From the IMG/VR virus record IMGVR_UViG_2595698333_000001, positions 1-64,000 of that record: a DNA stretch of 64,000 nt; one strand, 5' to 3'. Both the position numbers and the translations under genes were made by a program. Source of the stretch: a virus (lineage: Duplodnaviria > Caudoviricetes). Shown in pieces: positions 4,117 through 41,792 of this stretch. Numbering within the stretch: position 1 is the first letter of the stretch; each line of letters starts with the position of its first letter. The notes under the pieces are model-generated. The model saw only the letters and a list, made by a program, of their open reading frames with translations, was not told the DNA's origin and searched no databases.

Positions 4117-4475
4117 TTCTTTTCTCCTCACTAGCGTCTACACGACCCGGTAACATAAAAGTACGGGTTGTAACGCTACACGCACGCGAGACGTGTTCTC
4201 TCTCGATAGTAAGATTTGGTACGGACTTTCTCAGACGAAGAGACTCGGTGTCTAAGCAATTCCTTACCAGGTAGGATGTATGCCCAGACCTCGAGAACAA
4301 AAGGATGGGTATAAACTTTTGCACTGGAAAAGCGCCCAACACTCACAACCCCCACCACCATAAAAGTATGCCATGGAGTATCTCCCGACCTAATCTCCCA
4401 CGCGCTTCTGGACCCGCAGCTATATCACCCCAGTCGCGTTAGCTGTAACCGAGCGGAGGGAGTATTAGCATCAGT

Positions 4476-4778
4476 ATGGATGACGACATTATAGACACGC
4501 TTAGGTATGCTCAACGTAGTAGACGTAAGCAGAGGACGAACCATCACTACGGAAAGTCGATAATTCAGACGGCGAGGAAGAACACGAAGCAGTATCGCCG
4601 TCTAAGGGGAACGACGACTGACTTCGCCTGGACACCCGAACCCGAGACATACGATAACCCGTGGGACGCTCCTATCTGGCGTAAGTGGATGGGACGTGCT
4701 GAGGAGTTCTGGGATGCTCGCCTGCAAGGACGTATCTTCTGGGAGCAGAGTAAAAACGGGTCAACCCGTACCGATTGA
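4476..4778 (+). CDS. Basic protein with FW motifs (EEFWDAR, IFWEQ)
   Basis: ORF track; first gene of a rightward unit. Confidence 0.6.
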   Translation: MDDDIIDTLRYAQRSRRKQRTNHHYGKSIIQTARKNTKQYRRLRGTTTDFAWTPEPETYDNPWDAPIWRKWMGRAEEFWDARLQGRIFWEQSKNGSTRTD

Positions 4779-5572: not shown

Positions 5573-5954
5573 CGAAGACGAGGGCGTCATAATCACCGTC
5601 CACAAAACGGAAGCACAGCACGGCGTCGTACACGCCGAACCTTGCGACTGCCACGAGCACATCCAGGTAGGCGCAGAGCAGAAGCGCGTACTCGCGGTCA
5701 TCGACCAGTTCCTCGGAGACCTCGCCTCTCAGCACAACGCTGTCGTGGTCGGGTGTAGCGACTGCGGGTGGGAAGGTTTCCTCGGACCTGGAGATAAGGC
5801 CGCCAACAAGGGGAATAAGGCGGTAGTTGACGAAGGTAGTTGTCCGGAGTGTGAGGGTGACCTCATCGACCTGACGCGCGACGAGTGCGAGCATGAAAAC
5901 CCCGCGCTCGAACCGTTCTACGATGAGGAAGAAATCCTCCCCGACGACTCGTAA
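5562..5954 (+). CDS. Zn-finger protein
   Basis: CSDCGW...CPEC; acidic. Confidence 0.7.
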   Translation: MNRNEDEGVIITVHKTEAQHGVVHAEPCDCHEHIQVGAEQKRVLAVIDQFLGDLASQHNAVVVGCSDCGWEGFLGPGDKAANKGNKAVVDEGSCPECEGDLIDLTRDECEHENPALEPFYDEEEILPDDS

Positions 5955-5956
5955 GC

Positions 5957-8938
5957 ATGCCACAGGATACACTCGAAGCCGAGGACGTTGTGCTGCCCGC
6001 GAAACGACAAGACGAACCGACGCTCAGGGAGCGGATGAGCGAGAACGCCTACCAGAACATCATGCCGGCGAGGTACCAGCGCCGGAACGAGGATGGTGAA
6101 CTGGTCGAGGAGCAGGAGGAAGTGTTCGAGCGCGTAGCGCAGAACATCGCTCTGGGCGACGTGCCTCACATGGACGGGATTATCGAGGTGGGTCCGAGCG
6201 AGTATCGCCCGGAGTTCCTCAGCGAGTTCCCCGACGGTGAGCACCAAGTCGAGGTGACCGAGGACAACGTGCGCTACCTCGACTACGAAAGCGTCGCAGA
6301 GGTCCTCGCTCCCGAAGCGCGACGTGAACTGGAGAACACCGCGGAGGAGTTCCAGACGCTGATGGAGCATCTCGCGTTCATGCCGAACACCCCGACGCTC
6401 ATCAACGCCGGCGACGAACTACAGCAACTGTCGGCGTGTTTCGTGGATTCGCCCGCTGACGACATGGACGACATCCACGACACTGCCCGGGAAGCGGCGA
6501 AGATTTTCCAGTCGGGCGGCGGCATGGGGTACGCCTTCTGGAAACTGCGTCCTTACGGTGATAAGGTCGGTTCGACGGGCGGCATCGCTTCTGGCCCTAT
6601 CACGTTCATGCGCACCTACGACCAGATGTGTAAGACCATCGCTCAGGGTGGTACGCGACGGGGTGCGCAGATGGGCGTCATGCGCGTCTCCCACCCGGAC
6701 GTAATAGAGTTCATCCACGCCAAGAACAAGGACGTTTCCCTCGCGGTGGCACTGGGTCTGAACGACCCGAAGGACCCGACAAACAACTCGTTCGCTGAGG
6801 CGCTCGAAGAGGCGCGTGACCTCATCAACGAGAACGGGAAGGTTCCCAAGCACCTGCGGAACGCGGTCGAACGTCACCTCTCGAACTTCAACATCTCGGT
6901 CGGCGTCACGCACGACTTCATGGACGCCGTGCAGAACAAGGGGGAGTTCACGTTCACCAACCCGCGGAACGACGAACCGCATATCGCCACCGAAGAAACG
7001 AAGGAACTGTGGGGTCGATACGACCTCGGACACCACGTCAGCGTCGGAGAGCCCCTGTCTGTCCCCGCGGAGGAAGTGTGGGAGCACATTATCGAGGGCG
7101 CCTACGAAAACGGAGAGCCCGGCGTTATCTACCTCGACACGGTGAACGACGAGCACTCCTTCGACGTGGACGAGCATCCTGACCACGAGATTCTCGCTAC
7201 GAACCCCTGCGGTGAGCAGCCTCTGGAGGAGTACGAGGCCTGTAACCTCGGGCATATCAACCTCTCGACCCTCGTGACCGAGGACGCGCCTGACTGGCGT
7301 GAGTACGACGGTGACGTGGATTCGTTCCTGAGTGACGCCATCGACTGGCAAGAGTTCGACCGACGTATCTACTCGGGCACGCACTTCCTGGACAACGTCG
7401 TCACCATGTCCGACTTCCCGATTCCGGAAATCGAGGAGAAGGTCACGTCCATGCGAAAAATCGGGCTCGGTATCATGGGGTACGCGCAGATGCTCATCCA
7501 ACTCGGTATCCCGTATGGGTCCGACCTGGGGAACGACGTGGCTCGTCGTCTCATGGCGTACATCAATCACGAGAGCAAGGCGGAATCTCACCACCTGGCG
7601 CAGGAACGAGGTGCGTTCGACGAGTGGGACAAGTCGAAGTACGCGAACCCGACGGAGTACCCGTCCTGGTTCGAGGAGCACACTGGAGAGAACCCGTTCG
7701 ACTGGGAAGACGGGTTCCCGGTACGGAACCACAACACTACGACCATCGCTCCCACTGGAACGACCAGCATGATTGGGAACACTTCGGGCGGCTGCGAACC
7801 GCTACACAACGTCGCGTTCCTCAAGAATGTCAGTCAAGACATCCAAGGCGAGGACGAGCTCGTGGAGTTCGACGACTACTTCCTGCGCGTTCTCGAAGCG
7901 AACGACGTAGATGTCCAGGCTGTCAAACGCCAGGCGGCGCGTCAAATGCAGGACCCGTCGCTTGAGTTTAAGGGTACTGATTCTCTCGACGAAGTGCCTG
8001 ATAGCATCGGGTCACTATTCGTTACTACTGGTCAGCTTAGCGGTCGTGAGCATGCGTCGGTTCAGTGCGCTTTCCAGGAAGGTGTGGACAGCGCTATCTC
8101 GAAGACGGTGAACTTCCCCTCGACGGCAACGCGCGGCGACGTGCGCGAGGTGTACGAGTACATCTACGAGCATGGTGGCAAGGGTGTCACCGTGTACGTT
8201 GATGGCTCGCGTCAGAAGTCGGTCATCTCGACGTCTGCGCATGACGCTGATGAAGAGGACACGGACACCGAGGAACCGCAGAGCACGCAAGAGACGACGC
8301 AGACGACGAAGCAGGTTGCCGACGACTTCCTCATCGACGAGTACGGTGTCAGCGTCGAGTGGCTCGATGCCGTGATGAACGACGAGGAGGTTCCGACGAC
8401 GGGCACGCCACGCCCGCGCGAACGTCCTGCTGTCCTCGACTCGACCGTCTACCCGGTGCGCACGGGATACGGCGAGCTCAACGTCTTCGTCAACGAGGAC
8501 AACCAAGGTCGCCCGTTCGAGGTCTTCGCGGAAATCGGGAAGTCGGGTGGGTTCACTCACTCGTTCACCGAGGCAGTCGGTCGCCTCACGTCGCTCGCTC
8601 TCCGTAGCGGGATTCCCGTGGACGAAGTCATCGACCAACTCGACGGAATCCGGTCGCCGAAGACGGGATGGCACAACGGCGGTCATCAGATTCAGTCGAT
8701 TCCGGACGCGGTCGCGTATGCGCTCGAACAGCATGACGCGGACCCCGATTCCGAACCCGAGGACCCCACACCTGAACCCGCCGAAACCCCCGTCCAGAAG
8801 GGGAATCAGCAGGAGTCAGAGGGTGGCGCTCTCGCGCACGGCGAAAACCCAGAATGCCAGGAGTGCGGAGCGATGGCGCTGACGTACAGCGAGGGTTGTA
8901 AGAAGTGCGAAGCGTGCGGGTGGAGCGAGTGCGGTTGA
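5957..8938 (+). CDS. nrdJ: Class II (adenosylcobalamin-dependent) ribonucleotide reductase
   Basis: FMPNTPTLINAG, SACFV, TNPCGEQPL, TTIAPTGT, DSAISKTVN; C-terminal SIPD-type domain and Zn ribbon; no intein seen. Confidence 0.97.
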   Translation: MPQDTLEAEDVVLPAKRQDEPTLRERMSENAYQNIMPARYQRRNEDGELVEEQEEVFERVAQNIALGDVPHMDGIIEVGPSEYRPEFLSEFPDGEHQVEVTEDNVRYLDYESVAEVLAPEARRELENTAEEFQTLMEHLAFMPNTPTLINAGDELQQLSACFVDSPADDMDDIHDTAREAAKIFQSGGGMGYAFWKLRPYGDKVGSTGGIASGPITFMRTYDQMCKTIAQGGTRRGAQMGVMRVSHPDVIEFIHAKNKDVSLAVALGLNDPKDPTNNSFAEALEEARDLINENGKVPKHLRNAVERHLSNFNISVGVTHDFMDAVQNKGEFTFTNPRNDEPHIATEETKELWGRYDLGHHVSVGEPLSVPAEEVWEHIIEGAYENGEPGVIYLDTVNDEHSFDVDEHPDHEILATNPCGEQPLEEYEACNLGHINLSTLVTEDAPDWREYDGDVDSFLSDAIDWQEFDRRIYSGTHFLDNVVTMSDFPIPEIEEKVTSMRKIGLGIMGYAQMLIQLGIPYGSDLGNDVARRLMAYINHESKAESHHLAQERGAFDEWDKSKYANPTEYPSWFEEHTGENPFDWEDGFPVRNHNTTTIAPTGTTSMIGNTSGGCEPLHNVAFLKNVSQDIQGEDELVEFDDYFLRVLEANDVDVQAVKRQAARQMQDPSLEFKGTDSLDEVPDSIGSLFVTTGQLSGREHASVQCAFQEGVDSAISKTVNFPSTATRGDVREVYEYIYEHGGKGVTVYVDGSRQKSVISTSAHDADEEDTDTEEPQSTQETTQTTKQVADDFLIDEYGVSVEWLDAVMNDEEVPTTGTPRPRERPAVLDSTVYPVRTGYGELNVFVNEDNQGRPFEVFAEIGKSGGFTHSFTEAVGRLTSLALRSGIPVDEVIDQLDGIRSPKTGWHNGGHQIQSIPDAVAYALEQHDADPDSEPEDPTPEPAETPVQKGNQQESEGGALAHGENPECQECGAMALTYSEGCKKCEACGWSECG

Positions 8939-9697: not shown

Positions 9698-9814
9698 AAA
9701 CACGCGGTACGTAGCGTCTCTGCGTCGTCTGTTCGGACCCACCGACCACTTTTGCTTCGCTACGCACTTTTATGTTACTGGGTACTGTACGATTAGTCGG
9801 AGGTCGAAGAGAAA

Positions 9815-10966
9815 ATGGCGACGAACGCAGACGACAACGGCGATGGCAACGAGCGGATGAACAGCAACGTGGAAGTCAACGCGGTGCCGCTGGACGCAGT
9901 CAGCGACGCTGACGAGGATGCGGAGGTTCTCGGGTTCGCGGTCATGTCGACCACGGGCGAGGTCGTCGTTCCTCGTGACTGGTTGCAGGCGCAGTGGGAG
10001 GAGTACAACCTGCCCGAAGAAATCATGCCCAGCGAGACGTGGAATTCGAGTGCGTACAAGCGCGCCATGTTCCACCTCCTCGACCAGGGCAACGATGAAC
10101 AGTACGTGAAGACGTCCGCGGGCACGCAGAAGGTCACGCTCGACACCAAGGACGGCAGCGGGAATCAGAAGCACGTTCTCGCCAACGTCTGGTTCGACGA
10201 CGACCACCCGAACGCGGAGCAGTTGGACATCGAGGCAGGCGGCGAGTGGCGGCAGACGACGCTCGGTGTCACCAACTACGACGCCGAGGAGCAGGACGTG
10301 CGTATCACTCAGCGGATTGACGACGAGCACCCCCTGTCCGACGTCTGGCAGAACCTCGTCGCTCGTATCCGTGAGCTGTTCGAGACGCACAAGGTCTCGC
10401 ACAACGGCGACGACATGAGGGACGTCCTGTACGACTTCACGCGCTACTACAGTGACAGCATCCCGCTGCGCGACGGCGGCGCGGTGTACTTCATCCCCGC
10501 GAACGAGAAGGACACCATCGAGGCGCTCGCGGAAATCTGGGACAAGATGGACGACGAGTTCAAGCTGCGCGGGCGCGAGACGGAGATTCAGACGATTCCC
10601 GTCGTCTCCGACACGGAGCGCAAGGAGCTGGTCGAGAAGCGCGCGGCGAAGGTCGTCCGCGACGAGATTGACCGCGTCCTGGAGGACGCCTTCGAGACGG
10701 CTGACGACCCGGACGACGAGACGCCCGAGGACGAGATAGTCAGCACCATCGAGGACGCGCTCGGTGACCACGCGCAGACCGCCGAGGTCTACAACGCTCT
10801 GGTTGACGCGCGGATTGACATCCGCGACGTTCTCAAGGAGTTCGCTCGTGACGTGTCCTCGGAGGCGCAGCAGGACCTCATCGAGAGCACCCTGGAGCGC
10901 CTGGACGCGGACGAGGTCGCTACCGACGGCGGGCAAGAGCGTGACGAGAACGGGCAGTTCGTCTGA
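9815..10966 (+). CDS. Conserved phage protein (DUF6744-like)
   Basis: PLRDGGAVYFIP motif; strong codon bias; TTTTATG promoter at 9768-9774. Confidence 0.7.
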   Translation: MATNADDNGDGNERMNSNVEVNAVPLDAVSDADEDAEVLGFAVMSTTGEVVVPRDWLQAQWEEYNLPEEIMPSETWNSSAYKRAMFHLLDQGNDEQYVKTSAGTQKVTLDTKDGSGNQKHVLANVWFDDDHPNAEQLDIEAGGEWRQTTLGVTNYDAEEQDVRITQRIDDEHPLSDVWQNLVARIRELFETHKVSHNGDDMRDVLYDFTRYYSDSIPLRDGGAVYFIPANEKDTIEALAEIWDKMDDEFKLRGRETEIQTIPVVSDTERKELVEKRAAKVVRDEIDRVLEDAFETADDPDDETPEDEIVSTIEDALGDHAQTAEVYNALVDARIDIRDVLKEFARDVSSEAQQDLIESTLERLDADEVATDGGQERDENGQFV

Positions 10967-10984
10967 ACCTGCCTGAATCGTCAC

Positions 10985-11045
10985 TCTCGTCGGGCCATAC
11001 TCGCGGAGGCCCCTGACGAGCCGGGTGAGGTCCGGCGAAACGAGG
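10985..11045 (+). ncRNA. Type III hammerhead ribozyme (HHR1)
   Basis: CTCGT-C^ GGGCC[ATACTCGCGGA]GGCCC CTGACGA GCCGG[GTGAGGT]CCGGC GAA ACGAG: complete core, three stems, GUC cleavage after 10991, loop I CTCGC complementary to loop II GTGAG. Confidence 0.92.
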
Positions 11046-11055
11046 TCAAACAGAA

Positions 11056-11646
11056 ATGGGACGAACCCACATAGAGGTCGAGGACGACCGCGCTTTCGAG
11101 CGTGCGCGAGACATGCTCAACGCGGCGGACATCGACCCCGAGGCGGTGTCGTACATCGAGATAAGTGTCGTCTATACGGACGAGGAGGACACCGACGAGA
11201 GCACGTCGCTCACGCCCGAGGAGGACGAAGAGGATGAATCACCCACGGGCGACGACGAACCCGACGAGACGACGGAGACGCGCGAACGTGAGGCACCTAC
11301 GGGCGGAGGCGGTCCTGCGCCTGGTCAGGTGTACGAAGGTGAGCGCTATGAGGGTGCAGTGATGCCAGGCACTCACCGTGCGCGTGTTCTCAACGTCCTG
11401 CTCGACCACGAGGGCGAGTGGATGGACGCGCGTCAGGTGTTCGAGGAGGTCGAGCATCCGGACACCGACTACGACCAGGCGAAAGGTGCACTGTCGGGCC
11501 TGTCCAACAAGACGCCGTACCTGAGGAAGCGCGAGAAGAGCGACTACGGTCACCGCGAACCGCGTAACGAGTATCAAGCGAACGAGGCAGGAGAGCAGGC
11601 GCTTGCGGCAGGTCGAGAACTCGCCGCAGGCGAGAAGATGACGTAG
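11056..11646 (+). CDS. Putative winged-helix DNA-binding protein with acidic linker
   Basis: C-terminal wHTH-like pattern (RVLNVLL..EWMDARQV..KGALSGL..YLRKR..EYQANEAG). Confidence 0.7.
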   Translation: MGRTHIEVEDDRAFERARDMLNAADIDPEAVSYIEISVVYTDEEDTDESTSLTPEEDEEDESPTGDDEPDETTETREREAPTGGGGPAPGQVYEGERYEGAVMPGTHRARVLNVLLDHEGEWMDARQVFEEVEHPDTDYDQAKGALSGLSNKTPYLRKREKSDYGHREPRNEYQANEAGEQALAAGRELAAGEKMT

Positions 11647-11662
11647 GCGAGCGCCTGCTCGT

Positions 11663-11743
11663 CCTCGTCGGACACGCCCGCGAAAGTGTCCCTGATGAGC
11701 GCGTGAGCGCCATCGGACCCGGTCGGGTCGGGTCGAAACGAGG
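11663..11743 (+). ncRNA. Type III hammerhead ribozyme variant (HHR2) with a 17-nt insertion
   Basis: CCTCGT-C^ GGACAC[GCCCGCGAAA]GTGTCC CTGATGA (GCGCGTGAGCGCCATCG) GACCCG[GTCGGGT]CGGGTC GAA ACGAGG; cleavage after 11669. Confidence 0.75.
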
Positions 11744-11779
11744 CGACAACCTATGAAGGACGCAACCGAGGTGTGACCC

Positions 11780-13096
11780 ATGGCGAGTGGCATGGGTAAC
11801 GCTGACGACGAGATGAACCGCCGGGCGCTTCGGCAGCAGGAGCGCCTGAATCAGATGTCCACGCAGTCCCCAGCGGTCGGTCGGAGCAGTCCCGACGACG
11901 ACGGTGAGGTTTCCACGACTGACACGGACGCGGCGGCGATGCTCGAACACTACAACAGCAACGGAGAAGGCAGCATGACCAAGGAAAAGAAGAAACTCAA
12001 GTCGCCGAGGTACAGTGACGTTCCATCATACACGCTCGAAGCGCTCGACACGGACACGCTCAAGGACGACGTGTTCCCCGCCCTCGACTTCAGCGAGGCA
12101 GAACGCCAGGCAGCAGGTGCGCTCGTTCGCTACGCGGACCAGGACCTGACGCAGGCGGAGGTCGCTGAGAAGGCAGGCGTGTCGAGTACGACCATCAGCC
12201 GGACGCGGCGTTCGCTGACCACCTCGCGCAACCCCGACGAGGACAAGCGCGAGATTCTGCGGTACGCACGGGAGAACCCGGACGCGAGCAACAGTGAGAT
12301 TGCCGACAAGTTCGGCACCGCGTCCTCGAACGTGAAAGCGATGCTCCGCGAGTATCGGCACGCGCGTATCGTCTGCGAGGTCGAGGTTGAGGAGACGACC
12401 GACGACGACGAAAGCACGACCGGAGAGACGACGGGCGACGACGAGCAGGATGTCTCGGACGGAGATGACGACGACACGCAGAGCGACGAAGCTGACGCGG
12501 TACAGAAGGACCTGTCTGGTGACGGGGACGTGACGTACAAGTACGACCCGAAGGACAAGTCGAAGAAGCAGACGCGAGGAGGGCAGTCGCTGAAGAGCGT
12601 GCGCGACCAGTCGCACCTCATCTCGCTGTTCCGCGAGCTCGACCGTCGCCTGCGCGAGGTCGAGAACAACGGCGTCGAGGCAGATGTCCCGTCGGCGTTC
12701 AAGGGTCGCGTCTCCTCCCTGGAGAGTCAACTCGAAGGTGTGCAGTCGGTCGTTGACCGTATCGAGAACCAGCAGTCGAACCTGGAGCGGTTCGTCGAAG
12801 ACGAGTTGGACACGTCGTCTGACTTCGAGGCTCTGGAGCAGGACGTGCAGGACCTCAAGGAGCAGTGTCAGGGCATCGTCGAGGCGACGGAGCAGGACTG
12901 GGAAGAGACGACGCTCGGGCAGCGGGTCGACCGTATCGAGGAGTCGCTATCGTCGCACAAGGAGGCCATCCAGGACCTCCGCGAGTCGGGCGGTGGCGGC
13001 ACGTCGTTCTCCACGGAGGAGAAACGGAAAGTCATCGTCGCGCTCGCTGAGAACGGGCAAGACGAGCTCATCGACCGGGTCTTGGACGAGTTCTAA
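11780..13096 (+). CDS. Tandem-HTH plus coiled-coil protein
   Basis: LTQAEVAEKAGVSSTTISR and ASNSEIADKFG HTHs; C-terminal heptad repeats. Confidence 0.8.
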   Translation: MASGMGNADDEMNRRALRQQERLNQMSTQSPAVGRSSPDDDGEVSTTDTDAAAMLEHYNSNGEGSMTKEKKKLKSPRYSDVPSYTLEALDTDTLKDDVFPALDFSEAERQAAGALVRYADQDLTQAEVAEKAGVSSTTISRTRRSLTTSRNPDEDKREILRYARENPDASNSEIADKFGTASSNVKAMLREYRHARIVCEVEVEETTDDDESTTGETTGDDEQDVSDGDDDDTQSDEADAVQKDLSGDGDVTYKYDPKDKSKKQTRGGQSLKSVRDQSHLISLFRELDRRLREVENNGVEADVPSAFKGRVSSLESQLEGVQSVVDRIENQQSNLERFVEDELDTSSDFEALEQDVQDLKEQCQGIVEATEQDWEETTLGQRVDRIEESLSSHKEAIQDLRESGGGGTSFSTEEKRKVIVALAENGQDELIDRVLDEF

Positions 13097-13233
13097 GACA
13101 ACCCGGTCTACTTGTAATCCGCGAGTACAAACGCAGAGCGTTGTCCTTTTGCGCACCCGTTGACCACTTACACCCCGGTACGTACTTATATGGTACTACC
13201 CCGTGTACGACGATACGCGGAGGACGAAAAGAC

Positions 13234-25305: not shown

Positions 25306-25380
25306 TTGTCCCCGCGAGATTTGAACTCGCGTCCTGGGCTCCAAAGGCCCAGAGGATTGGCCAAACTACCCCAGGGGACT
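25306..25380 (-). tRNA. tRNA-Gln (anticodon TTG), no encoded CCA
   Basis: AGTCCCC TG GGGT..TCCT C TGGGC CT-TTG-GA GCCCA GGAC GCGAG TTCAAAT CTCGC GGGGACA A; TATAAA upstream at ~25429-25434. Confidence 0.93.
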
Positions 25381-41261: not shown

Positions 41262-41792
41262 CTCTTTTCTTCCTCCGCACTCGGTAGTACATCACCCGGG
41301 ATAATAAAAGTATGGGAATACCACGTAGCGCGTTGTATGGTTACAACCTCGGAATAGCCCGTACCGCGTCTAACGAAGCAGACGCGGTTCTGAGCGCATG
41401 GAGGGTAGCTCCGATACATCGTAGGGACCCCGACCGACAAAAGGAGGGATATAACTATGGTGTTCAGACTACCGAGCAATCACACAACGCCCGATACCAT
41501 AAAAGTATGGGTTATCCTCGTACCGAAGCATAAAGAAAAAGCCCTCGGGCGCGCTACCCGAAGGCTCTATTTCTCACGCCGTTCGCCGTTCATCTCATCC
41601 CAGAAGTGCTCGTAGTCGTTCGGGCCATCAGGCCTCATCCTCATGGCGCCGATAACGTTGCCGCACTCGGGACAGTCGTAGCCGAGGTCTCGACGACCCG
41701 CGGCATGCTGGGAAGGCCCTTGATAGTCACACCGTCCATGTTATCAGTCGAACCTACCCACCCGCAGTCGTAGCACTCGTACTCTTTCTCGC

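What the first reader, a model, noticed from the sequence alone, without database searches (positions are those of the whole stretch)
10985..11743. Two hammerhead ribozymes bracket one gene in a haloarchaeal DNA virus: programmed mRNA excision, possibly a circular mRNA
Seen: both intergenic gaps of the 9815-13096 operon hold type III hammerheads with full cores (CUGAnGA, GAAA, GUC site). They share stem III (CUCGU/ACGAG) but have different stem I and II sequences, with compensating loop-loop pairing (CUCGC/GUGAG in HHR1, GCCCG/CGGGU in HHR2). Cleavage after 10991 and 11669 would release a 678-nt RNA holding the whole wHTH ORF (11056-11646). Known: hammerhead products have 5'-OH and 2',3'-cyclic phosphate ends, the substrates of RtcB ligase, which archaea encode; retrozymes circularise this way. 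Inference: the virus cuts a polycistronic mRNA into separate units, or makes a stable circular mRNA. I know of no description of this in archaeal viruses but could not search.
Basis: partly seen in the sequence, partly recalled or inferred. Interest (0 to 1): 0.9.

Follow-up and report, generated by a model that had tools for sequence, protein, structure and literature searches.

The report
Two hammerhead ribozymes flank halovirus gene
Two self-cutting RNA motifs (hammerhead ribozymes) sit on either side of one small gene in a virus of salt-loving archaea and probably chop a three-gene message into single-gene pieces, a layout already described for phages in 2011.

Summary
Two type III hammerhead motifs lie on the + strand at 10985-11045 (cut after 10991) and 11663-11743 (cut after 11669). 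They are the only two in the 102,319-nt genome, and shuffled genomes give none to one. Both fall below Rfam's gathering score (35.7 and 22.1 against 48.5 bits), but relatives support them. HHR2 is the ancestral copy: HCTV-5, HCTV-16 and HCTV-1 each have one hammerhead in the same gap and lack the middle gene. HHR1 came with the inserted winged-helix gene. Its 55-nt core is identical to the single hammerhead of the unrelated virus HHTV-2, recurs four times in one metagenome contig, and sits in many contexts in other metagenome contigs. Stems I and III covary. HHR2 has a 17-nt insert after A9 that can pair with the catalytic core, so it may cut slowly or conditionally. The most likely function is processing a three-gene transcript. 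The circular-mRNA idea is possible but untested. Hammerheads in haloviruses, hammerheads flanking phage genes, and the circular-product idea were all published in 2011 (PMC3088659). This scan has noted similar halovirus hammerheads on other DNA. It is a new member of a known kind.

The parts
9767..9779 (+). TATA-like promoter motif CTTTTATGTTACT ahead of the three-gene unit
   Evidence: The motif CTTWTATGKTACT with up to 2 mismatches gives 5 matches in the window against 0.66 expected, and 0 of 100 shuffles reach 5. The only + strand matches are at 9767 and 13185, which flank the unit. Its role as a promoter is inferred.
9815..10966 (+). Gene A, 383 aa, DUF6744 family
   Evidence: ORF. Pfam PF20529, E 3e-19. 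Orthologues lie in HCTV-5, HCTV-16 and HCTV-1.
10985..11045 (+). HHR1, a type III hammerhead that would cut after C10991. The pseudoknot is 11000-11004 with 11025-11029.
   Evidence: Rfam RF00008 gives 35.7 bits. Found by the descriptor. Model R1 gives 91.3 bits, by construction. Positions 10988-11042 are 100% identical to HHTV-2. Covariation.
11056..11646 (+). Gene B, 196 aa: a conserved N-terminal stretch, an acidic disordered linker and a C-terminal winged-helix domain. It is absent from HCTV-5, HCTV-16 and HCTV-1.
   Evidence: No Pfam hit and no tblastn hit in 'phages'. Five metagenome homologues at 57-82% identity. The AlphaFold model has pLDDT 87-95 for residues 100-190 with H-H-H-strand-strand-H order. 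The best Foldseek matches are PadR/MarR winged helices at E 3.5e-3 to 3e-2. In one related contig, 20 of 27 listed differences fall on third codon positions.
11663..11743 (+). HHR2, a type III hammerhead that would cut after C11669. It is the orthologue of the single hammerhead of HCTV-5, HCTV-16 and HCTV-1.
   Evidence: Rfam gives 22.1 bits. The descriptor finds it only when an insert is allowed.
11699..11715 (+). 17-nt insert in HHR2 between A9 and G10.1: a 4-bp hairpin with GNRA loop GUGA, then the linker CAUCG
   Evidence: Descriptor insert length 17. HCTV-5 has a 17-nt insert of the same build (CCGC-GCGA-GCGG-CGUAG), while HCTV-16 and HCTV-1 have one U there. In the minimum-energy folds the linker pairs with core U4-G8. 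Related contigs read GAGA in the loop (11704 T>A).
11753..11776 (+). Conserved 7-codon mini-ORF and Shine-Dalgarno-like GAGGUG between HHR2 and gene C
   Evidence: Read by eye: MKDATEV*, MKENTEV*, MKPKTEV* and MKAKTEV*. A loose end gives MKVQTEV.
11780..13096 (+). Gene C, 438 aa, HTH domains plus a coiled-coil-like C-terminus
   Evidence: ORF. Pfam HTH_24, E 6.4e-11, among other HTH families. Orthologues at 55-75% identity in all 5 matching records, which stand for 3 viruses.
13130..13152 (+). Hairpin followed by a T-run, a possible end of the transcription unit
   Evidence: Terminator-like site. Three such sites were found against 2.7 expected, so this is weak on its own.

Best explanation
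Genes A (DUF6744), B (winged-helix protein) and C (HTH protein) are transcribed as one RNA from a promoter near 9767 (inferred). Two type III hammerhead ribozymes in the two gaps cut this RNA after C10991 and C11669. Because they are type III, each ribozyme body stays at the 5' end of the downstream piece. That piece starts with a 5'-OH and two stable hairpins, and each upstream piece ends in a 2',3'-cyclic phosphate. The result is three single-gene mRNAs whose stability and translation can differ. Cutting also frees the stem III 3' strand (ACGAGG), which looks like a Shine-Dalgarno site 9-10 nt ahead of the next AUG. HHR2 is the old, resident ribozyme of this virus group. HHR1 arrived together with gene B as an inserted 'ribozyme plus ORF' module of a kind that circulates among haloviruses. 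HHR2's 17-nt insert can fold back on the catalytic core, so HHR2 probably cuts more slowly or conditionally than HHR1. The motifs, their conservation and the insertion are shown. Co-transcription, cleavage, end chemistry and every downstream effect are inferred.
For: These are the only two type III hammerhead sites in the genome. Shuffled genomes gave 0 of 100 with a strict site and 0 of 100 with two sites, and Rfam matches both full-length. HCTV-5, HCTV-16 and HCTV-1 each have one hammerhead in the A-C gap and no gene B. Whole-record scans gave exactly one site each in HCTV-5, HCTV-16 and HHTV-2. The HHR1 family has 6 sequences (window, HHTV-2 and four in L026). With HCTV-16 and HCTV-1 added, 93.9% of 163 cells pair, 8 pairs change on both sides (0 of 500 shuffles reach this), stem I covaries at 5 of 5 pairs and stem III at 3 of 5, and slid controls give 26-51%. 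The loop I/loop II pseudoknot is kept in the HHR1 family. By eye, different letters keep it in HHR2 (GCCCG/CGGGU), HCTV-16 and HCTV-1 (CCCG/CGGG) and HCTV-5 (ACCC/GGGU). Many metagenome contigs match only 10988-11042 and then diverge on both sides. Of the 5 listed loose ends behind 11041-11046, 4 show an ATG within 20 nt. Other contigs bridge A-HHR1, HHR1-B and B-HHR2-C. TATA-like motifs on the + strand occur only before A and after C. Clustered hammerheads flanking phage genes do cleave in vitro, and a halovirus transcript 5' end maps within three nucleotides of a hammerhead cleavage site (PMC3088659).
Against: Both motifs score under Rfam's gathering threshold. No cleavage or RNA data exist for this virus. 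HHR2's core is interrupted by 17 nt, and its minimum-energy fold pairs U4-G8 with the insert, which is incompatible with catalysis. HHR1's minimum-energy fold (-28.0 kcal/mol) is not the hammerhead fold (-21.1 without the pseudoknot). Saltern hammerhead variants tested by Perreault et al. were nearly inactive under standard conditions. Co-transcription rests on a motif search alone. The alignment used for covariation was fitted to the model's structure, and four of its eight rows come from one contig.
Confidence: 0.65

Rival explanations
1. Only HHR1 cuts efficiently. HHR2 is a switchable or largely silent variant whose 17-nt insert locks the catalytic strand in a helix. The usual products would then be A and B-C, and the 678-nt unit would be released only under certain conditions, such as very high Mg2+ or a factor that opens the insert helix.
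For: In the minimum-energy folds of HHR2 and of the HCTV-5 orthologue, the linker (CAUCG or CGUAG) pairs with core U4-G8. The insert hairpin keeps its pairing through a G-C to C-G change, and its GNRA loop reads GUGA, GCGA or GAGA, so the insert is under selection. Core insertions in saltern hammerheads impaired cleavage and raised the Mg2+ requirement.
Against: All catalytic letters and all three stems are intact, and they are kept in environmental relatives. HCTV-16 and HCTV-1 carry the same ribozyme with only one extra U at that site. A one-nucleotide insert at this position also occurs in 3 of the 10 IMG/VR phage hammerheads that the descriptor recognised among 17 loci.
Confidence: 0.2
2. 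The excised 678-nt RNA is circularised into a stable circular mRNA for the winged-helix protein. Its 3' tail CCUCGUC>p pairs with ACGAGG of the HHR1 body and rebuilds a hammerhead around both ends. Host RtcB, or the reverse hammerhead reaction, then joins them.
For: The HHR2 5' strand forms 6 Watson-Crick pairs with the HHR1 3' strand, at least as good as native HHR1 with 6 pairs of which 5 are Watson-Crick. RtcB is found in the haloarchaeal control genome Haloferax volcanii above the family cut-off. That hammerhead products carry the ends RtcB joins is established chemistry, recalled here. Retrozyme RNAs of similar size circularise (PMC4918200 and PMC5680766; title and abstract seen in the listing).
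Against: There are no RNA data. In the four-hammerhead array of L026, the strands that would have to pair give only 2-4 pairs against 4-6 native, so compatible ends are not a general design. Here they may simply reflect how the insertion arose. The virus encodes no RtcB (PF01139) or RNA ligase (PF09414). Perreault et al. looked for circular or spliced products of clustered hammerheads and found none. The two ribozymes are not repeats of each other: model R1 gives 91.3 against 17.3 bits.
Confidence: 0.08
3. The hammerheads matter mainly as boundaries of exchangeable gene cassettes. Short shared ribozyme sequences (CTCGTC, GAAACGAGG) serve as recombination points between co-infecting haloviruses, and RNA cleavage is incidental or lost.
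For: Gene B plus HHR1 is an insertion relative to three relatives. The HHR1 core is identical in the unrelated HHTV-2, where it precedes an unrelated gene. The core lies in many different contexts in metagenome contigs. All four stem III strands in the window are interchangeable.
Against: Compensatory changes in stems I and III and the kept pseudoknot show selection on RNA structure, not only on DNA. The spacer alignments do not fix the insertion boundaries: 15-18 identities in 24-27 columns among the virus spacers, against 13-15 with the unrelated HHTV-2 spacer. The two roles do not exclude each other.
Confidence: 0.05
4. These are chance look-alikes with no function.
For: Both score below Rfam's gathering threshold. 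Rfam RF00008 also gives sub-threshold matches at E <= 1 in 3 of 14 control genomes.
Against: None of 100 shuffled genomes gave two sites. The motifs are conserved at the orthologous position and covary.
Confidence: 0.01

Closest known systems
Clustered hammerhead ribozymes flanking single genes or short gene blocks in prophage polycistronic transcripts (Perreault et al. 2011, PMC3088659; passages read)
   Same: Several hammerheads lie on one strand in the gaps of a viral operon and bracket a small, non-conserved gene. The proposed role is the same: processing into single-gene mRNAs. The same paper raises circular or spliced products as an alternative.
   Different: The host is an archaeal (Haloarcula) tailed virus of the HCTV-5 kind, not a bacterial prophage. 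Both ribozymes are type III. Relatives show that one is ancestral and the other arrived with the gene. Cleavage is untested here, whereas three bacterial arrays were shown to cut in vitro.
Halovirus HF1/HF2 hammerhead 'HHphage' and the saltern virome hammerheads 'HHmeta' (same paper, section 9 and discussion; also mentioned in PMC7230728)
   Same: These are hammerheads in tailed viruses of haloarchaea, placed a few nucleotides ahead of a start codon inside an early polycistronic transcript. Some carry core insertions that weaken activity.
   Different: Those variants carry 2-nt insertions near C3 and stem I. HHR1 here has a consensus core, and HHR2 has a 17-nt hairpin insert after A9. The L026 copies at 6733 and 4637 do have changes next to C3. 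BLASTN with HHR1 found no HF1 or HF2 record.
Type III hammerheads with a loop I/loop II pseudoknot (Rfam RF00008; pseudoknot described in PMC3088659)
   Same: The core letters, three-stem topology and a 4-6 bp pseudoknot between the loops of stems I and II all match.
   Different: The scores of 35.7 and 22.1 bits are below the family's gathering score of 48.5.
Retrozymes and viroid-like hammerhead circular RNAs (PMC4918200, PMC5680766; title and abstract seen in the listing)
   Same: A 600-1000-nt RNA is bounded by two hammerhead cleavage sites. After both cuts, one complete hammerhead can be rebuilt across the ends.
   Different: Those RNAs are non-coding, eukaryotic, flanked by repeats that carry the same ribozyme, and shown to be circular. 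Here the unit encodes a protein, the two ribozymes differ, and no circle has been seen.
Chrysanthemum chlorotic mottle viroid (+) hammerhead with an extra core nucleotide (De la Pena and Flores 2001, J Biol Chem 276:34586; only the title was seen, in the reference lists; that the extra base lies between A9 and G10.1 is recalled)
   Same: It is an insertion at the A9/G10.1 junction that is tolerated by an active natural hammerhead, like the single U of HCTV-16 and HCTV-1.
   Different: That insert is one nucleotide, not a 17-nt hairpin that can pair with the core.

Membership tests
Hammerhead ribozyme, type III (Rfam RF00008) | Conserved core letters C3 U4 G5 A6 N7 G8 A9, G12 A13 A14, the A15.1-U16.1 pair, and a cleavage nucleotide that is not G | tested here: met
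   Both motifs have CUGANGA, GAAA, the A-U pair and C17.
Hammerhead ribozyme, type III (Rfam RF00008) | Three helices around the core, with stem III open and stems I and II capped by loops | tested here: met
   The Rfam alignments cover model positions 1-54 for both. The descriptor gives stems of 5/7/6 and 6/8/6 pairs.
Hammerhead ribozyme, type III (Rfam RF00008) | Score at or above the curated gathering threshold (48.5 bits) | tested here: not met
   35.7 and 22.1 bits. HHTV-2's copy scores 38.1 and the first L026 copy 36.6.
Hammerhead ribozyme, type III (Rfam RF00008) | Helices supported by compensatory changes in homologues | tested here: met
   In 8 sequences, 93.9% of cells pair and 8 pairs change on both sides (0 of 500 shuffles reach this). 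Stem I covaries at 5 of 5 pairs and stem III at 3 of 5. Stem II hardly varies. The alignment was fitted to the model.
Hammerhead ribozyme, type III (Rfam RF00008) | Continuous core: G10.1 directly follows A9 | tested here: not met
   This is met for HHR1. HHR2 has 17 nt (11699-11715) between A9 and G10.1.
Hammerhead ribozyme, type III (Rfam RF00008) | Site-specific self-cleavage giving 5'-OH and 2',3'-cyclic phosphate ends | not testable with these tools
   No RNA run is listed for the region. This needs bench work.
Clustered hammerheads that process phage polycistronic transcripts (Perreault et al. 2011) | Two or more hammerheads on the coding strand in gaps of one gene block, flanking a gene | tested here: met
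   HHR1 starts 19 nt after the stop of gene A and ends 10 nt before the start of B. HHR2 starts 16 nt after the stop of B.
Clustered hammerheads that process phage polycistronic transcripts (Perreault et al. 2011) | The flanked genes lie on one transcript | tested here: inconclusive
   The TATA-like motif occurs on the + strand only at 9767 and 13185, and a T-run hairpin lies at 13130. There are no transcript data.
Retrozyme or viroid-like hammerhead circular RNA | Covalently closed RNA detected (junction reads, RNase R resistance) | not testable with these tools
   No RNA holder is listed.
Retrozyme or viroid-like hammerhead circular RNA | The unit is bounded by repeats carrying the same hammerhead | tested here: not met
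   The model built from the HHR1 family scores HHR1 at 91.3 bits and HHR2 at 17.3 bits. Only stem III is shared.

The most novel reading that the evidence does not exclude
The unit from cleavage site to cleavage site (10992-11669) is both a mobile cassette and a circular mRNA. After both cuts, its 3' tail CCUCGUC>p pairs with ACGAGG in the HHR1 body at its own 5' end and rebuilds a complete hammerhead around the two ends. Host RtcB, or the ribozyme's reverse reaction, seals them. The circle is then translated from the freed Shine-Dalgarno-like GAGGU ahead of the AUG, giving a long-lived message for a viral winged-helix regulator.
Probability: 0.08. Interest if true: 0.8.

Novelty: new member of a known kind. 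Interest (0 to 1): 0.35.

Why it matters
What genomic hammerheads do in prokaryotic viruses is still an open question (reviews PMC6765202, and PMC6155905). This locus offers a natural comparison for testing it. Close relatives carry one ribozyme and two genes, and this virus carries two ribozymes and three genes. One ribozyme has a consensus core, and the other has a selected 17-nt insert that can mask the core. The viruses and hosts are cultivable, harmless laboratory systems. The HHR1 family also shows that a near-identical ribozyme module sits ahead of unrelated genes in unrelated haloviruses. That fits the view of 'ribozyme plus ORF' units as exchangeable parts. If the excised RNA proved to be circular and translated, it would be a first for a prokaryotic virus, but nothing here shows that.

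Tried and rejected
RNA evidence: the look-up of sequencing runs listed no RNA holder, so expression, ends and circles could not be examined. Only DNA contigs of four coded runs were laid.

The one metagenome scan returned only a distant homologue, L026, at 31% identity. Contigs show HHR1-B and B-HHR2-C joined in environmental relatives, but none spans the whole unit.

Pattern scans that led nowhere:
The descriptor found no true hammerhead among them, only one weak hit in L057 that I judge spurious.
- The stem I pattern found only HHTV-2 in IMG/VR and nothing in genome contigs.
- The pattern gave 43 bacterial or archaeal loci and 2 IMG/VR loci. Apart from HHTV-2, none was an HHR1-type hammerhead: L189 showed none, and the one descriptor hit among the genome loci (L151, stems of 4, 5 and 4 pairs) I judge spurious.
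- (same stem III) gave 17 phage contigs. The descriptor recognised 10 as hammerheads. They are unrelated to the HHR1 family and show only that such ribozymes are common in viral contigs.

Rfam missed the HCTV-5, HCTV-16 and HCTV-1 hammerheads. Model R1 found HCTV-16 (31.4 bits) and HCTV-1 (29.1) but not HCTV-5, and scored HHR2 at only 17.3 bits (E 0.12).

MAFFT alignments of the mixed set were poor and were not used for counting. HHR2 and HCTV-5 were therefore left out of the covariation count and compared by eye and by folding only.

The spacers ahead of the cleavage sites were aligned to locate the insertion boundaries, and the result was uninformative. HHTV-2 gp78, downstream of its hammerhead, is unrelated to gene B (E 20).

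Literature limits:
- Sencilo et al. 2013 (RNA Biol 10:803) is cited by PMC6466107 for hammerhead motifs in haloarchaeal tailed viruses. It is not held, so I could not check whether it already reports the HCTV-1, HCTV-5 or HHTV-2 ribozymes.
- Supplements were closed and not requested. Dataset S1 of PMC3088659, with alignments of the saltern hammerheads, may already hold HHR1-family sequences.
- The GenBank records annotate nothing in these gaps.
- Searches for prior description were. The four papers listed hold HCTV-1 and HHTV-2 but have 0 occurrences of 'hammerhead'.

Rejected readings: chance motifs, and a separate promoter in the gaps (no TATA-like motif there; this is weak evidence).
Full report
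WHAT IS THERE. The window belongs to a complete 102,319-nt virus record with terminal repeats. Its nearest named relative is halovirus HCTV-5 (Druskaviridae), at 86.8% identity over the aligned parts of 9700-13200. HCTV-16 and HCTV-1 follow at about 74%.

Three + strand genes lie between 9815 and 13096:
- A (9815-10966) belongs to DUF6744, E 3e-19.
- B (11056-11646) has no Pfam hit.
- C (11780-13096) has several HTH families, the best being HTH_24 at E 6.4e-11.

The two gaps read as type III hammerheads.
- HHR1 (10985-11045): stem III CUCGU/ACGAG, C17 at 10991, stem I GGGCC/GGCCC, CUGACGA, stem II GCCGG/CCGGC, GAAA.
- HHR2 (11663-11743): stem III CCUCGU/ACGAGG, C17 at 11669, stem I GGACAC/GUGUCC, CUGAUGA, then 17 extra nucleotides (11699-11715), stem II GACCC/GGGUC, GAAA.

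The piece between the two cleavage sites is 678 nt and holds all of gene B.

MORE THAN CHANCE. Rfam's default scan of the window lists only a tRNA.
- With E-value reporting on 951 nt, RF00008 matches both motifs over model positions 1-54. The scores are 35.7 bits (E 8.4e-6) and 22.1 bits (E 0.061), against a gathering score of 48.5.
- Over the whole window only HHR1 is listed, at E 5.6e-4.
- Over the whole genome they are the only two matches, at E 2e-7 and 1.5e-3. Sub-threshold matches at E <= 1 also occur in 3 of 14 control genomes.
- A descriptor of my own required the core, GAAA, stems of at least 4, 3 and 4 pairs, and a cleavage base other than G. It finds exactly these two sites on both strands of the genome.
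- In 100 dinucleotide shuffles, 0 had a strict site. With an insert of up to 20 nt allowed, 3 had one site and 0 had two.

RELATIVES: ONE OLD RIBOZYME, ONE NEWCOMER. In HCTV-5, HCTV-16 and HCTV-1 the A and C orthologues are adjacent, 108-143 nt apart, and gene B is missing. Each gap holds one type III hammerhead. Whole-record descriptor scans gave exactly one site each in HCTV-5, HCTV-16 and HHTV-2; the HCTV-1 record was not scanned whole.

The sequence after HHR2 continues into the same leader as in the relatives, so HHR2 is the orthologue of their ribozyme. HHR1 plus gene B is therefore an insertion in this lineage. Metagenome contigs show both layouts in nature. Some bridge A-HHR1, HHR1-B and B-HHR2-C. 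One joins 10960 directly to 11765, and one continues from 10960 in the HCTV-5 manner.

THE HHR1 FAMILY. Positions 10988-11042 are 100% identical to the only hammerhead of HHTV-2 (Saparoviridae). That virus shares nothing else with this 3.5-kb stretch. The HHTV-2 gene downstream of it is unrelated to B.

A metagenome contig, L026, was found through a 30%-identical homologue of B. It carries four copies on one strand, each in a gap between ORFs, found with a covariance model built from the family:
- 1865-1923, core CCGACGA;
- 4637-4696, core CCAGAAGA, 12 nt after the stop of the B homologue;
- 6733-6792, with one extra A after C3;
- 8006-8066, with a consensus core.

In four coded metagenome runs, many short contigs match only 10988-11042 with 1-9 differences and then run on unlike the window on both sides. 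Of the 5 listed loose ends behind 11041-11046, 4 show an ATG within 20 nt. HHR1 is thus one member of a ribozyme module that sits just ahead of different genes in different haloviruses.

Exact-pattern scans found no further copies in IMG/VR beyond HHTV-2, and none in the representative prokaryote genomes.

COVARIATION. I used the model-fitted alignment of eight sequences: the window's HHR1, HHTV-2, four from L026, HCTV-16 and HCTV-1.
- 93.9% of 163 cells form standard pairs.
- 8 pairs change on both sides, and 0 of 500 shuffles reach this.
- Stem I covaries at 5 of 5 pairs, reading GGGCC, GGGGC, GCCCC, ACCCC and GGGCA with matching partners.
- Stem III covaries at 3 of 5 pairs.
- Sliding the partners gives 26-51% pairing. 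The four-sequence MAFFT alignment agrees at 92.9%.
- A loose end adds GGGAC/GUC...
- Stem II and both loops are almost invariant in the HHR1 family.
- The CUCGC/GUGAG pseudoknot is kept in 6 of 6 HHR1-family rows.

The HHR2 group has a pseudoknot in other letters, by eye: GCCCG/CGGGU in HHR2, CCCG/CGGG in HCTV-16 and HCTV-1, and ACCC/GGGU in HCTV-5.

Three caveats apply. The alignment leans towards the model. Four rows come from one contig. HHR2 and HCTV-5 could not be aligned well and were left out of the count.

THE HHR2 INSERT. HHR2 and the HCTV-5 ribozyme each carry 17 nt between A9 and G10.1. The insert is a 4-bp hairpin with a GNRA loop (GCGC-GUGA-GCGC or CCGC-GCGA-GCGG) followed by a 5-nt linker (CAUCG or CGUAG). 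HCTV-16 and HCTV-1 have a single U there.

The hairpin keeps its pairing through a G-C to C-G change. Environmental relatives read GAGA in the loop (11704 T>A).

In the minimum-energy folds of both RNAs, stems I, II and III form as in a hammerhead. The linker, however, pairs with core nucleotides U4-G8, or C3-G8 with a bulge in HCTV-5. That helix is incompatible with the catalytic fold.

The insert is therefore selected and can mask the core. Whether it acts as a brake, a switch or a harmless appendage cannot be decided here. A one-nucleotide insert at this site also occurs in 3 of the 10 IMG/VR phage hammerheads recognised by the descriptor. A viroid precedent exists (title seen; the position is recalled).

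For HHR1 the minimum-energy fold (-28.0 kcal/mol) is a non-hammerhead alternative to the hammerhead skeleton (-21.1, pseudoknot not counted).

TRANSCRIPTION UNIT AND GENE B. A TATA-like motif, CTTWTATGKTACT, occurs on the + strand only at 9767 and 13185, just outside the three genes. In all it gives 5 matches in the window against 0.66 expected. A hairpin with a T-run follows gene C at 13130. One transcript for A, B and C is thus plausible but not shown.

Gene B is a real gene.
- Five metagenome homologues at 57-82% identity share its start, MG(R/K)THIEVED.
- 20 of 27 listed differences in one related contig fall on third codon positions.
- The model of residues 100-196 is confident and has winged-helix order.
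- The Foldseek matches to PadR/MarR proteins are weak but consistent, E 3.5e-3 and upward.

HOW IT MOST LIKELY WORKS. Shown: the motifs, their conservation, and the insertion. Inferred: everything about RNA.

The A-B-C transcript is cut after C10991 and C11669. Because both ribozymes are type III, each stays on the 5' end of the downstream piece. That piece begins with a 5'-OH followed by two G+C-rich hairpins. Each upstream piece ends in a 2',3'-cyclic phosphate, by established hammerhead chemistry (recalled).

The three genes can then differ in stability and translation.

Cutting also frees the stem III 3' strand ACGAGG. This resembles a Shine-Dalgarno site and lies 10 nt before the AUG of B, and 9 nt before a conserved 7-codon mini-ORF that ends 3 nt before the AUG of C.

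HHR2 probably cuts more slowly than HHR1.

THE CIRCULAR READING. In favour: the 3' tail of the excised RNA (the HHR2 5' strand) forms 6 Watson-Crick pairs with the 3' strand of HHR1 at the other end of the same RNA. That is at least as good as native HHR1. A haloarchaeal control genome has RtcB.

Against:
- In L026 the corresponding cross-pairings give 2-4 pairs against 4-6 native.
- The virus has no RtcB or RNA ligase.
- The two ribozymes are not repeats.
- Perreault et al. looked for circular or spliced products of clustered hammerheads and detected none.
- No RNA data exist here.

I put this reading at about 8%.

WHAT IS KNOWN. Perreault et al. 2011 (PMC3088659; passages and section 9 read) reported several relevant things:
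- hammerheads in haloviruses HF1 and HF2, 13 nt ahead of a helicase gene in an early polycistronic transcript whose mapped 5' end lies within three nucleotides of the cleavage site;
- several hammerheads from saltern viral fractions, some with core insertions and low activity;
- the loop I/loop II pseudoknot;

Later reviews still call the function open (PMC6765202; PMC6155905). A 2019 review cites Sencilo et al. 2013 for hammerhead motifs in haloarchaeal tailed viruses. I could not read that paper. It describes HCTV-1, HCTV-5 and HHTV-2 (recalled), so these ribozymes may already be mentioned there. The deposited records annotate nothing in the gaps.

Earlier agents of this scan reported type III hammerheads in halovirus operons and hammerhead arrays in phage operons on other DNA, with the same verdict.

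VERDICT. The ribozyme and mRNA-processing reading is well supported by comparison but untested at the RNA level. The circular mRNA is an open, low-probability extra. The claim of no precedent is wrong.

This is a new member of a known kind, with three useful particulars: an ancestral and an acquired ribozyme side by side, a ribozyme-plus-ORF module shared between unrelated haloviruses, and a selected 17-nt core insert that can mask the catalytic strand.

Noticed in passing
window 11753-11776: A 7-codon mini-ORF (MKDATEV*) lies between HHR2 and gene C and ends 3 nt before the AUG of C. Its last codons spell the Shine-Dalgarno-like GAGGUG. The same mini-ORF is kept in HCTV-5 (MKENTEV*), HCTV-16 (MKPKTEV*), HCTV-1 (MKAKTEV*) and one metagenome contig (MKVQTEV). 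It may couple translation of C to ribozyme cleavage, or it may just be a conserved ribosome-binding site.
   Followed up: partly
With up to 1 mismatch, shuffles give 0.05 matches. No hammerhead surrounds it. An antisense RNA covering GAAA, stem III and the pre-start region of HHR1 is conceivable but marginal statistically.
   Followed up: partly
L026 1865-8066: Four HHR1-family hammerheads lie on one strand within 6.2 kb of a metagenome contig, three of them 12-14 nt after a stop codon. Three have non-consensus cores: U4 to C, an extra A after C3, and CCAGAAGA. These recall the saltern variants with insertions near C3 in PMC3088659. Two tRNA genes lie between them at 5747-5931.
   Followed up: partly
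window 11040-11045 and 11738-11743; L004 2554-2559: The 3' strand of stem III (ACGAGG; CGGAGG in HHTV-2) looks like a Shine-Dalgarno site 9-12 nt before the next start codon. It is paired until the ribozyme cuts and stem III falls apart.
   Followed up: no
protein P0004: The called N-terminal extension of this 210-aa homologue (MSSGEVRAKRRTKQ) resembles a read-through of the HHR1 stem II to GAAAC region; the window in that frame gives PGEVRRNEVKQK. This hints that an HHR1-type ribozyme precedes the gene on that 55-kb contig.
   Followed up: partly
window 25306-25380 (-): A tRNA gene, 43.1 bits, is the only Rfam match above gathering score in the window.
   Followed up: no
window 4149-4161, 4354-4366, 41493-41505 (-): Further copies of the TATA-like motif CTTTTATG(G/T)T... 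lie on the minus strand. They are probably promoters of leftward units.
   Followed up: no
L010, L017, L019 (IMG/VR contigs): Three of the ten recognised phage hammerheads have one extra U between A9 and stem II, as in HCTV-16 and HCTV-1, so this core variant is widespread in viral contigs.
   Followed up: no
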